From NCBI GenBank assembly GCA_963693365.1, contig CAVNZM010000006.1, positions 4,505,264-4,569,263 on the forward strand: a stretch of 64,000 nucleotides of DNA, in the 5' to 3' direction. The translations under genes and the position numbers were made by a program. Shown here in pieces: positions 1 through 46,300 of the stretch. Source of the DNA: Amoebidium appalachense (taxonomy: Eukaryota; Protista; Ichthyosporea). How positions within the stretch are numbered: position 1 is the first letter of the stretch; the number at the start of each line of letters is the position of its first letter. Under the pieces are notes generated by a model that had not been told where the DNA came from, ran no database searches, and saw nothing but the letters and a program-made list of their open reading frames with translations.

Positions 1-3000
1 TGCCATCGTGCAGACCACAGAGCACCTGGAAAAGGCCTACATCAAGGACTCTATCACCCCTAGAGAGTACGTGCCCCCCCCCCCCCCCCCCCCCCCCCCC
101 ACCACCACCACCCCTCCTCCTCCCTCCCCCTCCCCCATCCCCCATCCCACCTTCTCCCCATCCTCCTCCCCCCCCCCCCCCCCCCTCTGACTAAGGTAGC
201 AAAAGGGGAAGCTTCTCAGAAGCCCTGTCTCGTGACCTCCTATCTATATATTTGCTTCTGCTTACTGCTTCAACTTAAACCCTCGGCCTTTCTCACTGCC
301 CTTGCCTGTTGCCTGTTCGCATTAGTTCGTCTCTGATCAAGACGGATGACCCACCCATGTTCAAGTGAAACAGTATCTGAGTTGGGTTTCGTTGACGGGG
401 TGAATGGGTCGAAAATCGCGTACTGTGGATGACGTGGGGCCCCCTGAGGATGGCTATACTTGCATACTCTTTGTGTGTTGTTGAAACTCTGCATCGTGTT
501 GTCCGTTGTTTATGTGTACTTCGTACTTTATAGCACATCCCCCCCTCCCCCCCCCCCCCCCCCCCCCCCCCCCCCCCCCAAACACACACACACACCCCAC
601 CACTACCACCACACATTCTACCCCCCCCCCCCTCCCCTCTGCTTCACTTGCCCCCCTCCTTCCACTCCCACTCTCTACGTGTGTGTGTGTGTGTGTGTGT
701 GTGTGTGTGTGTGTGTGCGTGCGTGCGTCTGTGTGTGTGTGTGTGTGTGTGTGTGCGTCTGTGTGTGTGTGTGTGTGTGTGTGTGTGCCCGTGTGTCTGT
801 GTGCCCGTGTGCCCGTGTCTGCATCCCTGCATGGTGTAGGTGCGGATGATTATGCAGTTTTTGTGAGAACCTGTGTTAAGTCACGTTCCAGGACATTGCA
901 GCGTCCAATGATCTGTGTTTCTTTGTCACCTGTGTACCCACACCGGATTAGGTCATTTGGAATGTGCACGTAATCATTTTCAGACGTAAAGAGTGAAGCA
1001 AATCCACCAATAAATGATTGATAATGTTGCCCCCCAGCCTCCCTCCCATCTCCCCACTCACACATTTGCACCTCCACTCCTTGCTCACCCACTATTTAAT
1101 TACAAATATTCAAGCTCACTCACCCAAGTCACTAAGTCACTCAAGTCAATTGCTCACCCAATCAAACGCACACCACATGTGTGCGCGCACGACACACACA
1201 CACACACACACACACACACACACACACACACACACACACACACACACACACACACACACACACACACACACACACACACACACACACACACACACACAGA
1301 TACACGCCGGCATGTGAGAAGCTGATTGCGCAGTTCAAGACGTGCATGAACCTTCTAAAGGATGAGGTGCCTTCCCTGGAGGCATTTATGAAAGAATACA
1401 AGGTGTGTGTGCTCGTGCGTACGTGCGTGCATGTATGTGTGTGTGTCCGTGTGCGCGTGTGGGTGGGTGGGTGGGTGGGTGGGTGGGTGGGTGGATGTAG
1501 GTGTGTGTGTGTTGGGGGGGGGGGGAGGGGGGGTGCGTGCGCGCGTGTGTGTGGTGTGTGTGTGTTGAAGTCTTTTCAATAGGGGTCGTTATGAAAGTGT
1601 ATCGTGTGTGTGGGTGTCTACATCTGTAGAAGTCTTGGTTGCGGCCCAACAAGGGGCGTGGGAATGGAAGCCCAGCCAGGGGCGTTGGAATGGAAGCCCA
1701 GCCAGGGGCATGGGAATGGAAGGGGATGGAGGGGGAGAGGTGTGTGTCTGTGTGTGTGTGTGTGTGTGTGCGGGGGGGGGGGGGGAGGGGGGCGGGGATG
1801 ACTTTCTCTGCAATTGCGCTGAAGAGTTTTTTTTGCAAAGACAGGGAATTCCTGTGGACATTTTCTTTCTTCCCACAGCTCAATTGTGTGCATTTGTGTG
1901 TGTGTGTAGGATGCGCGCCTACAGGGGGGGGGGGGGGGGGGGGGGGGGGGGGGGGGGGGGGGGGGGGGAGAGGGGGGGGGGGGAGGGGGGGGAGAAGAGA
2001 GGTATGGATGGTCTAGATTTTTTTCTGTGGTCTGTGGGCAAAAAAAAAGGTGATCATGCTGACAGTCTTTTTTATCTACATTACAGCTGAGCTGCCCTGC
2101 TGCGTTGAGCCGGCTGAACATTGGGGTGCCGGCCACGGTGGAGCACGGGGGGGTGGGTGAGGGGGAGCAGAAGAAGCTCACACAGTATGTGGCTGAGACG
2201 GTCCAGGTGCGTGTAGTGCGGTTTGCTTCGTGTTCCTTGTTTTCTTTGCCTTCAGTTCCGTTTCGTTTTGCTCTGTTTTTTTTTCTTTTTTTCTTTTTTT
2301 CTCTTCTCCCTTCTCTCCTCGTTGGTTTGAGCCTTTACTAGTTTCCTAACTTCTATGGATTTTCCTGTTTCTTTCTTTCTTTCCTTTTTTTTTCCTCTCT
2401 TTTTTTTTTTGTGTGTGTTCGTGTGTGTGGGGAGGGGGGGGGGGGGGGGGAAAGGGGGGGGGAGGGAGGGCTGTCTGCCCTGCCACCATAGCCGAACGTA
2501 AAAGTAGGAAGAAGCACAGTTTCCTTGCCTCCCCATTCCATGCACATGTAATTTACAATGTTCGTTTACACAAATGAGGTGTACTGTTTCGTGCTCTGTG
2601 TTGTGTAGACTTCCTTGACGTGTCTTGCGCTGTACATTCTCAGGACTGTTTGCTTCTGTGCCCCCTCCCCCCCCCCCCCCCCCCCCCCTTTCCCCTCCCC
2701 TTCACCCCCGTGTATATAAAAACCACACAGACACACACATACACACATACCGTGACACACACACATACACACACGCACACACACACACACCACACACACA
2801 CACACGAACGCACGCGTGCGCATCCCCCCTCCCCACACACACACATGAACACACACCCACACGCACACCCACACAGCACATACATGAACACGTGTGGCAC
2901 ACACACACAACACACACACACACACACACACACACACACACAGAGGGAGAGAGAGGAAGGGAGAGAGAGACACACACACAGACACACACACACACACACA

Positions 3001-43300: not shown

Positions 43301-46300
43301 GTCTTGATCAACATGTGTTGGCTTTGTTGTAGCCATGAAACGAAGGGCTGGTTGGGAACTCAATACATGGGTTTTTTGATACCACCCCTGAGGATAGTTC
43401 TAGTTAATATGATGTTAGTTGCTGTCGCGGTTTCTGTGTGTGTGATGATCGTGTTTATTTATACCCCATGTCGGTGGGTCGTGTGGTGTAGTGGCAGTGT
43501 GCAGTTTTTGGATAATGTGCATCATTGACCAACTGTATGTGTGCCTTGTGAGATGAATGTGAGATGGTACCGTGGTCAGAGATGTGAGGTGTGAGTAGGT
43601 GGGACCTTGGGCCAAGTTCACGGTTAGGGTGCATCTTTAATAGTGCAGTCGTGTGAGGCCCTTGCTGGGGTTCCACTCCCTCTCGTACTCACACTGTGAC
43701 CGTGCGGTGCTCAATCTATCTGAGAGTGTGGGCGCACTGGGTATTTATACCCCTCGTGCAACCACTAATTGATCAGCAATTAGGCACTCCTATGATAGAT
43801 CCACACACTCGTAAGCGGCCCAGGACTACGTGCGGGTTCGTCTTACAGCCTCTCACTGACCCCCCCCCCCCCCCCCCCTCCCCCCCCCCCCCCCCCCCCT
43901 CTCCTCCTCCCCCCCCCCCCCCCCCCCTCCCCCCACAACAGAGACACGTCGTTAAGCAGAACCGAAAACTCGTGGCAGGTCCGTCCCCCCCCCCCCCCCC
44001 CTTCTCATCGTCTATGCGTACTTCGTACTGTGTTCCGCATTCAAACCCCCCCCCCCCCCCCCTCCCCCACCACCACCACCACCACGTGCGACACACAAAA
44101 AAAAAATACCACCACCACCATCACCCACCTGCTGGTTTTGGCTTTCTGGCCCTCGCAACATTGCAATATTACTGGAGTTTAGGCTCGATGAAAATACATG
44201 CTTTCGGGCTTCAAAGTGTTAGAAGTGATAGAACCAATGCATCTGCATCACCCCACATATACCGTTTATGCCCAGCCATATGGTTTTCAAAATAAACAGC
44301 TTTCACGTGTGTAAGATTGCACGCGAACATGGTCTGGTTATGTCGATGGTGTGCTCTTGTATATGCAAGTTCCGTCAAGCAGTGTGTGTGTGTGTGTGTG
44401 TGCGTGCATGCGTGTGTGTGTGTGTGCACGTGTGTGTATGTGTTTGTGTGTCTGTGTCTTTGTGTGTGTGTGTGTGTGTGTGTGTGTGTGTGTGTGTGTG
44501 TGTGTGTGTGTGTGTGTGTGCTTGTGCGTGTGCGTGAGAGAGAGAGAGAGAGAGAAAGGTGTGTGTGTGTGTGTGTGTGTGTGTGTGTGTGTGTGTGTTT
44601 GTGTGCTTGTGTGCTTGTGTGTCTGACCACCCACTACAACTATAGGTGTGTGCCTGCTGCTAGCCACCAAGTTCTACAACCCAAAGGTCACAGCCCATTT
44701 CCTCAACAACCTCCTATTGGTATTACCCCCCCCCCCCCCCCCCCCCCCAAAAAAAAAAAAAAAAAAAAGAAAGAAAGAAAGAAAAAAAAAGAACACTCAT
44801 GGGTGTATGTGCGCGCCACACACGCGCACACATACATAATAAAACACGCCCAAGCGCGCATACACACACACACACACACACACATGCACATATGCCTACA
44901 CACACATTCACACACACACACACACACACACACACACACACACACACACACACACACACACACACACACACACACACACACACACACACACACACACACA
45001 CACACACACACACACACACACACACGCACACACAGGCAGCATGCTGCATGCATTTTTAGGGACATGAGGGCTAAGGAAGAGAGATATCCTATTCAGCACT
45101 CTATACATACATCAACCCCCCACCCCCCCATCCGGACCCCAACTATAGGCCACAACCCTTCTATCTTCCCTTTATCCATTTCTTTTAAGCGAGAAAATTT
45201 TCGCTTTAACTCGCACCCCCACACATACGCTTGAGCGTGCTCACACGCTCACATCTTGAACCCCCCCCCCCCCCCTCCAGGAAATTGAAGGTGAATTTCA
45301 CCTATCCACCAAGGATATCAAGGCAGCTGAATTTGAGTTTTATTCTAAGCTGGACTTTGCTTTGCACCCCCAGATGAAGGAGTGAGATCTCCCCCCCCCC
45401 CCCCCCGGAAGATGGGCTCTGCTTGTGACGCACACTTTGCGCATTGCTGATGTTGCATACTTGAATGTTTGCCTTTGCATGTGTCCCTGCACCATGCTTC
45501 TCATCGTGCATGTGTACTTCGTGTCGTATTTTGCATTTTACCCCCCCCTCCCCCCCTCTTGCTCGTGGTAGGATGGGTCCAGCTGATGATATACATTCTT
45601 GGTGTTGTGCGTCGGAAATTGTGCACTTTGTACTCGATAACACATTCTACCCTGTAGGATGGATTCTACTTTCTCTGTTTTGTGAGCCCGTTTTTCTTTT
45701 TTCTTTTTCTTGTGTGCTCCCCTCTCTATAAATTTGTTTCTGTGTTGTGCATCGTGAACGCGTGCTTAGTATACATTCAGACACATTCCCCCTACTATGT
45801 GCTTCCTTATGCGCATGGTGTTGTGTGATTTGCACCCACTTTCTCCCCCCAACACACACGCGCCAGCGCACACACACATGCACACACACACACACACACA
45901 CACACACAGATTCAGAAGCACGCACCGACCTCCCTGCCTCTTATAATTCGTCCGCTAGTAAACTTGCACACATCTGTTTTTTTATGTCTTGCGTCAATGT
46001 GTGCACGCTGTCTGTGTCTGTGCTGTGATTGTGTGTCTTTTTTTTTTTTTTTTTTTTTTTTTGAAGGGGAAGGGGGGGGGGGTATCGATGTCTCTGTGCT
46101 GTGATTGTGTGTATTATTGTGAGTATTTTGGGGGGGGGGGGGGGGGGGGGGGGGGGGGGGGGGGGGGGGGCAAACATGTCAAGACACCAGACCTGGTCTA
46201 CAGAGAGCTTAAACCAACCTCCGTATCTACCATTTTAGCATCTGGGTGGCGAGCAGCCGAGAGCCACATTTCTCAGATGTGGTTCACCAATCAGGAGACG

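What the first reader, a model, noticed from the sequence alone, without database searches (positions are those of the whole stretch)
512..45644. Recurrent sense-strand intronic stem-loop with fixed 15-nt loop (ACUUCGUACU...) and compensatory stem changes
Seen: seven intronic sites share a 4-6-bp stem around a 15-nt loop that begins with ACTTCGTACT or a close variant. They are 512-538 ATGTGT/GCACAT, 4425-4449 TGCGC/GCGCA, 41356-41382 ATGTGT/ACACAT, 43163-43187 TGTGT/ACACA, 44014-44040 ATGCG/CGCAT, 45510-45536 ATGTG/TGCAT (G-U pairs) and 45620-45644 TGTG/CACA. Looser copies lie at ~2603-2638, ~53823-53852 and on the minus strand at 31461-31490. The seven sit in the sense orientation of VPS28 and CABLES introns, mostly just 5' of a C tract; I saw none in the EGF or oleosin-like genes. 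Inference: constant spacing with stem covariation while flanks diverge suggests a selected RNA structure. Candidates are an undescribed intronic small RNA, an RBP-bound splicing element akin to U1A/U2B''-type loops, or the conserved 3' hairpin of a SINE-like element.
Basis: partly seen in the sequence, partly recalled or inferred. Interest (0 to 1): 0.8.

Follow-up and report, generated by a model that had tools for sequence, protein, structure and literature searches.

The report
High-copy intron repeat at C runs
The recurring hairpin is the tail end of a very abundant, roughly 300-base repeat that sits in introns beside runs of C in a single-celled relative of animals, and it is likely a non-coding retrotransposon rather than a host regulatory RNA.

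Summary
The motif is real, but it is not a stand-alone RNA element. It is the 3' end of a ~300-bp interspersed repeat (longest copy 239-545).

Assembled public reads pile on it at summed depth ~10^6 against 14-41 on unique flanks. That implies thousands of copies or more.

Ten share the 3' end and start at different 5' points (median 94 bp). Several form partial tandems, and most abut C runs.

Stem covariation does not beat shuffled or slid controls, two homologous copies lack the stem, and Rfam finds nothing.

The host is an ichthyosporean. The anatomy resembles non-autonomous Chlamys-type Penelope-like retroelements, which in Chlamydomonas give short, 5'-truncated, all-intronic insertions at (C)n. 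No autonomous partner could be tested, so membership is open; a LINE-driven SINE or a rolling-circle element remains possible.

The 7-of-7 sense-intronic placement is only partly explained by where the C runs lie.

Verdict: an undescribed repeat family of a known kind, of modest interest.

The parts
239..545 (+). In VPS28 intron 67-1299
   Evidence: (summed depth to 0.85-1.0e6 at 354-377; loose ends)
198..245 (+). Upstream stretch shared by a low-copy longer form (summed depth 36-317 against 11 on the unique contig in X9)
   Evidence: table 2
4402..4454 (+). Short copy with C runs on both sides; carries hairpin 4425-4449; VPS28 intron 3293-4816
   Evidence: (E 0.036 when not in the seed)
14210..14301 (+).
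   Evidence: (E 2.1e-7)
41296..41389 (+). 5'-truncated copy 11 nt after the donor site, with six C before it and a C run after it; hairpin 41356-41382
43024..43138 (+).
   Evidence: (E 0.0018)
43138..43194 (+). Second, shorter unit of that tandem; hairpin 43163-43187
44003..44047 (+). 45-bp 3' remnant lying inside the C run that follows the donor site; hairpin 44014-44040
45406..45543 (+). 3'-segment copy starting at the C run after the donor; first of three tandem units; hairpin 45510-45536; summed depth ~1.0e6
45565..45652 (+). Second tandem unit; hairpin 45620-45644
45653..45789 (+). Third, degenerate tandem unit (profile match 45741-45789, E 0.011)
53724..53853 (+).

Best explanation
The hairpin is the 3' terminus of a ~300-bp, non-coding, high-copy repeat that likely spreads as a non-autonomous retrotransposon inserting into poly-C tracts, most like the non-autonomous Chlamys-type Penelope-like elements. 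Shown: high repeat depth, a shared 3' end, variable 5' starts, partial tandems, C runs on one or both sides, and sense-intronic placement in this window. Inferred: an autonomous partner nicks at a (C)n/(G)n tract and reverse-transcribes the element RNA from its 3' end. Copying usually stops early, often at the internal C run, and new copies can land in the C tail of older ones, giving tandems. Because C tracts lie mostly on the sense strand of introns, copies end up sense-intronic. The hairpin is inherited from master copies and may have been a recognition signal for the transposition machinery; nothing shows that the host selects it.
For: Summed depth is ~1.0e6 over 45454-45479 against 13.9 (X9) and 41.2 (X1) on unique flanks, with 1325 and 1245 contigs laid. 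Depth is 0.85-1.0e6 at 354-377. A profile finds 11 units, all on +, and the best hit on the reversed window is E 2.7. Unit lengths are 45-307 bp, median 94; 10 of 11 share the 3' end. Tandem joints also occur in other contigs: 531->327 and 538->286 in X2, 536->337 in X4. A C tract lies downstream in 6 of 9 copies and upstream in 6 of 9, against 8%. Loose 3' ends run into C runs in all four runs. C tracts outnumber G tracts 73 to 33 on the sense strand of genes, against 17 to 22 between genes. There are no terminal inverted repeats and no tRNA or Rfam match. Precedent: Chlamys elements show 5' truncation, partial tandems, (C)n targeting, no canonical hammerhead and no discernible target duplication (PMC8557442). 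De novo Chlamys-9/N4 insertions had median length 128 bp and were all intronic, consistent with their (C)n target (PMC9977147).
Against: No autonomous partner was found or testable; the only RT in the window is LINE-like and has no sequence link to the element. Ichthyosporeans are not among the hosts in that paper's supplement. No inverted 5' copy, a common PLE feature, is seen. The 14210 copy keeps only the middle segment. The 4402 copy begins with a 10-nt word from the 5'/middle junction (loose ends) joined to the 3' end; internal deletion of that kind is more typical of DNA elements. Depth is no lower in the middle segment than in the 3' segment. The element has a fairly sharp 5' boundary near 239-246. 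Sense-strand genic C tracts are 73 of all 145 C/G tracts, so 7 of 7 loci there has a chance of about 0.008 under pure C-tract targeting; a residue is unexplained. No empty-site comparison was possible, so target and tail are not distinguished.
Confidence: 0.55

Rival explanations
1. It is a SINE-like retroposon mobilised by a LINE that recognises a 3' stem-loop, with a C-rich tail or target instead of an A tail.
For: The 3'-anchored, 5'-truncated copies and discrete ~300-bp length fit. Stringent LINE/SINE pairs commonly carry a 3' stem-loop (PMC3747384). LINE-type RT with an AP-endonuclease-bearing relative exists in this genome.
Against: No tRNA, 5S or 7SL head was detected in the one long copy, which is itself diverged from the family. 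The stem is absent from some members and shows no covariation above controls. Partial tandems are frequent. No shared 3' end with the window's LINE fragment.
Confidence: 0.2
2. It is a non-autonomous rolling-circle DNA element (Helitron-, Helentron- or Replitron-like) with a terminal palindrome.
For: The 5' end begins with TC followed by a TA-rich stretch (the resemblance to Helitron starts is recalled). Tandems and an apparent internal deletion occur. Rep transposons insert in a fixed orientation and have terminal hairpins (PMC10288648).
Against: There is no CTRR end (recalled Helitron1 feature) in 9 of 9 aligned 3' ends. Flanks are C runs, not the AT or TT targets given for Helitrons. Tandem units are of variable length, not whole elements. 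The palindrome shows no covariation.
Confidence: 0.12
3. It is a host-selected intronic RNA element (small RNA or protein-bound splicing hairpin), possibly co-opted from a repeat.
For: 7 of 7 independent loci are sense-intronic and none lies in ~31 kb of intergenic DNA. Several copies sit within ~25 nt of donor sites. A copy lies in both paralogous introns. One pair shows U-A/C-G exchange.
Against: Repeat depth implies thousands of copies. Homology extends far beyond the hairpin. Stemless members exist. There is no Rfam match and covariation is within controls. The U-A/C-G pair lies at CpGs in GCG/CGC contexts, which are ~70% methylated in Amoebidium appalachense (PMC11244446), so decay in one master lineage could mimic it.
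Confidence: 0.08
4. It is chance: TG/CA-rich intron sequence forms such stems easily.
For: The stems are made of TG/CA-type words, common here; single-site folding z-scores are weak.
Against: 7 sites against a shuffle mean of 1.03; 87% identity over 78 bp between two copies; read pile-up.
Confidence: 0.01

Closest known systems
Non-autonomous Chlamys Penelope-like elements of Chlamydomonas reinhardtii (Chlamys-N4_cRei, MRC1)
   Same: Short 5'-truncated copies, head-to-tail or partial tandems, (C)n association, intronic placement, no canonical hammerhead (PMC8557442 sections 9, 10, 15; PMC9977147 passage).
   Different: Host is an ichthyosporean; no partner ORF or pLTR of an autonomous element shown; no inverted 5' copy seen; sequence similarity to any Chlamys element not tested.
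Stringent-type SINE/LINE pairs with a 3' stem-loop
   Same: Discrete short non-coding repeat, 3'-anchored, with a weak terminal stem-loop (PMC3747384).
   Different: No Pol III RNA-derived head detected, no A-rich or short-repeat tail, stem not kept in all members, partner LINE unknown.
Non-LTR retrozymes
   Same: Small, dispersed or tandem, proposed PLE derivatives (bioRxiv 10.64898/2026.07.22.740005, abstract only).
   Different: No hammerhead match. Core-like words occur, but in an order and pairing that do not build the ribozyme (by inspection; motifs recalled). That abstract reports retrozymes as excluded from introns, the opposite of this element.
Helitron / Replitron non-autonomous elements
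   Same: Fixed orientation, terminal palindrome, tandems.
   Different: No CTRR end, no AT/TT target, variable 5' starts.

Membership tests
Naiad/Chlamys Penelope-like elements (non-autonomous) | Frequent 5' truncation with shared 3' end | tested here: met
   10 of 11 units share the 3' end; lengths 45-307 bp
Naiad/Chlamys Penelope-like elements (non-autonomous) | Partial tandem / head-to-tail insertions | tested here: met
   43024+43138 and 45406+45565+45653; back-joints in contigs
Naiad/Chlamys Penelope-like elements (non-autonomous) | Insertion bias at (C)n or (CA)n | tested here: inconclusive
   C tract adjacent in 6 of 9 copies on each side against 8%, but target versus own tail is not resolved without empty sites
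Naiad/Chlamys Penelope-like elements (non-autonomous) | 3' similarity to an autonomous element encoding GIY-YIG endonuclease plus PLE-type RT | not testable with these tools
   No genome held; none among 122 intergenic frames scanned
Naiad/Chlamys Penelope-like elements (non-autonomous) | No canonical hammerhead ribozyme | tested here: met
   No hammerhead hit to E 10 on 190-560; one diverged copy only
SINE (tRNA/5S/7SL head, LINE tail) | Pol III RNA-derived 5' head | tested here: not met
   ARAGORN 0 genes, Rfam none; tested on one diverged copy, not a family consensus
SINE (tRNA/5S/7SL head, LINE tail) | 3' end shared with a LINE | not testable with these tools
   Only one LINE fragment in the window, with no similarity
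Helitron1 | 3' CTRR after a hairpin; AT target | tested here: not met
   0 of 9 aligned ends; CTRR recalled, target
MITE | Terminal inverted repeats | tested here: not met
   0 inverted pairs in 190-560
Conserved structured RNA / Rfam family | Rfam match or covariation above controls | tested here: not met
   (9 sequences only, low power)
Conserved structured RNA / Rfam family | Discrete small-RNA product | not testable with these tools
   All listed runs are kept as contigs, which cannot show RNA ends or strand

The most novel reading that the evidence does not exclude
This is the non-autonomous partner of a (C)n-targeting Naiad/Chlamys-type Penelope-like element in a close unicellular relative of animals. 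It has put thousands of sense-oriented copies into the C tracts just behind splice donors, reshaping intron architecture, and some copies may now act on splicing.
Probability: 0.3. Interest if true: 0.5.

Novelty: new member of a known kind. Interest (0 to 1): 0.3.

Why it matters
It removes an apparent novel intronic RNA from the candidate list and supplies a repeat family that should be masked or curated in this genome. If a PLE partner is found, (C)n-targeted Penelope-like retrotransposition would extend to ichthyosporeans. The family would then allow a test of how C-tract targeting, transcription strand and selection together set the orientation of insertions in introns.

Tried and rejected
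Whole-genome scan: no genome is held.

Pattern scans. A 20-nt pattern gave 2 metagenome hits, which are the same bacterial-looking coding sequence with no profile match, so chance, and 0 viral hits. A 25-nt pattern gave 0 viral and 0 prokaryote-genome hits.

RNA families. Rfam gathering on the whole window gave 0. The E-value scan of 190-560 gave only sR23 at E 4.6, 10 bits against a cut-off of 45. ARAGORN found 0. The fold of 240-545 is no better than shuffles, z +0.72.

Hammerhead, H/ACA, C/D, 5S-derived and U6-like readings were considered by eye from recalled motifs and dropped: the required order or pairing is missing and Rfam has no hit.

Paralogous-intron conservation test (45405 against 53712): the alignments are gap-ridden and the identities inflated, so it is inconclusive. 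Whether the two copies are one old insertion or two is open.

Expression: no RNA holder is listed on record. X4, X5 and probably X6 behave like RNA, but contigs cannot show level, ends or strand, so they are no evidence either way.

Partner search: 122 of the 123 selected intergenic frames were scanned, and the RT frame; no GIY-YIG, Rep or helicase.

CABLES label: a homolog search with exon 1 found nothing and short exons hit no Pfam family.

Earlier scan notes: nothing, in 3 look-ups.
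Full report
1. Observation. The seven sites are at the stated coordinates. A loosened core-plus-stem scan gives 7 sites against a mean of 1.03 (maximum 4) in 60 shuffles, so the recurrence is not chance. 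Splice-frame checks place them in GT-AG introns: VPS28 67-1299 and 3293-4816; cyclin-box gene 41285-42292, 42830-43941 and 43979-44645. The script's search range missed the next donor. I set intron 45382-46728 by eye, and contigs of X4 run from the exon ending near 45383 straight into the next exon. The structural claims are weaker. The covariation score is reached by 128 of 500 shuffles and exceeded by a slid control. The most favourable measure, cells changed on both sides, is 3 against a mean of 1.1 (24 of 500 shuffles). RNAalifold predicts no pair. An alternative 4-bp palindrome with a 3-nt loop is better kept (86%) but has no covariation either. Nine related sequences give little power.

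2. Host. A VPS28 exon is 100% identical to a EukProt protein and 79% to one labelled Ihof (I read the label as Ichthyophonus hoferi from recall). The host is therefore an ichthyosporean. Amoebidium is my inference from the long, repeat-rich introns and was not determined. As context only: A. appalachense has a 202-Mb genome, about 50% transposable elements, and ~70% methylation at CGC/GCG (PMC11244446; seen: passages, first part of Results, supplement legends).

3. What it is. Self-comparison showed that homology extends well upstream of the hairpin (87% over 78 bp). Laying public contigs on 45090-45860 gave summed depth ~1.0e6 at 45454-45479 against 13.9 (X9) and 41.2 (X1) on the unique flank. 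Laying on 186-545 showed high depth from ~246 to ~540, peaking at 0.85-1.0e6, with a drop to a few hundred or less upstream. The tool warns that summed depth is no copy number. Dividing the ratios by up to 31 for overlapping contigs still leaves about 800-2300 copies. The window density (7-8 loci in 64 kb) would give ~2e4 in a 200-Mb genome. Some of these runs may be the source of the window and are not independent. A window-built profile finds 11 units, all on +, none on -, with the best reversed-sequence hit at E 2.7; nine units were seeds and match by construction, but unseeded single-copy searches recover most. Lengths are 45-307 bp, median 94. Ten share the 3' end. Two clusters are partial tandems, and back-joints in contigs show tandems elsewhere. 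C tracts lie downstream in 6 of 9 and upstream in 6 of 9 copies against 8%; two of the three downstream misses are followed by a tandem unit. Subfamilies differ at the 5' arm. The main U-A/C-G exchange lies at CpGs in GCG/CGC context and may be a single event in one master lineage (inference).

4. How it most likely works. Shown: abundance, shared 3' end, variable 5' start, partial tandems, C-run adjacency, sense-intronic placement. Inferred: target-primed reverse transcription by an autonomous partner at (C)n/(G)n tracts, early termination (often at the internal C run near 440), and re-insertion into older copies' C tails. C tracts favour the sense strand of genes (73 C against 33 G; 17 against 22 between genes), and 18 of 27 located donor sites have a C run within ~20 nt (30 given, 3 not located, a few placed roughly). 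This explains much of the bias. Against my reading: under pure C-tract targeting, 7 of 7 loci in genic sense tracts has a chance near 0.008, though 4 of the loci cluster in one gene. One copy has only the middle segment and one looks internally deleted. Depth does not fall from the 3' to the middle segment. No inverted copy and no partner were seen.

5. Comparison with what is known. It works most like non-autonomous Chlamys Penelope-like elements: 5' truncation, partial or head-to-tail tandems, (C)n and (CA)n targeting, no canonical hammerhead (PMC8557442; seen: abstract, sections 6, 9, 10, 15, term search of one supplement). In C. reinhardtii, de novo Chlamys insertions had median length 128 bp and were all intronic, consistent with the (C)n target (PMC9977147, passages). 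Membership is not shown, because the defining partner ORF could not be tested. A SINE head, Helitron1 end and MITE inverted repeats were tested and not met (PMC3747384 and PMC10288648, passages only). Retrozymes differ in hammerhead content and intron avoidance (bioRxiv 10.64898/2026.07.22.740005, abstract only; bioRxiv supplements are closed).

6. Novelty. Six literature searches (listings only unless named above) showed no description of this family or of a (C)n-targeted repeat in ichthyosporeans. The library omits most subscription journals, and an automatic repeat library for the host probably already contains it unclassified. I rate it a new member of a known kind, interest 0.3. The boldest reading not excluded, a Chlamys-type system in a holozoan that has remodelled donor-proximal intron sequence, has probability about 0.3.

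Noticed in passing
window, donor sites of the four genes and the duplicate: 18 of 27 located 5' splice sites have a run of five or more C starting 6-19 nt downstream, and many acceptors are preceded by (CA)n or C runs. This may be a lineage-specific intronic splicing signal.
   Followed up: partly
window 370-383 with 413-426: With the majority letters (415 and 419), these stretches form an unbroken 14-bp helix by inspection; the window copy's own differences break it.
   Followed up: partly
window 337-536, run X4: One contig of depth 1279 in an RNA-like run joins the element's 3' end back to 337: an abundant tandem or circular form.
   Followed up: no
window 53548-56221: Duplicated 3' part of the cyclin-box (CABLES-like) gene: 87% in the exon, 74-79% in intron and downstream pieces, with a 1-nt deletion in the duplicated exon.
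   Followed up: partly
window 50751-51450 +: Frameshifted LINE-type reverse transcriptase fragment, 98% to EukProt P0003; relative P0004 carries RT plus PF03372. It ends at a (TG)n run.
   Followed up: partly
window 14300-14385: 31-bp tandem repeat directly after the 14210 copy; its unit junction resembles the element's 3' end.
   Followed up: no
window 57100-59278 and 32074-32394: A second repeat family with 130-230-bp units in a complex tandem array and a dispersed copy.
   Followed up: no
window 21506-23089: Array built on a short C-rich unit in direct and inverted copies.
   Followed up: no
window 5536-5883: 73-bp inverted repeat, 92% alike, around ~200 bp: MITE-like.
   Followed up: no
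window 40439-40810: Degenerate ~65-bp tandem repeat in an intron.
   Followed up: no
window 7419-7946 -: 176-residue stop-to-stop frame without a Pfam match.
   Followed up: no
window 4817-4830: The spliced VPS28 differs from P0001 at three adjacent residues at the start of the last exon: strain difference or assembly error.
   Followed up: no
window 52385-52741 +: Frame with a weak PAN_4 match (E 1e-4, below the curated cut-off).
   Followed up: no
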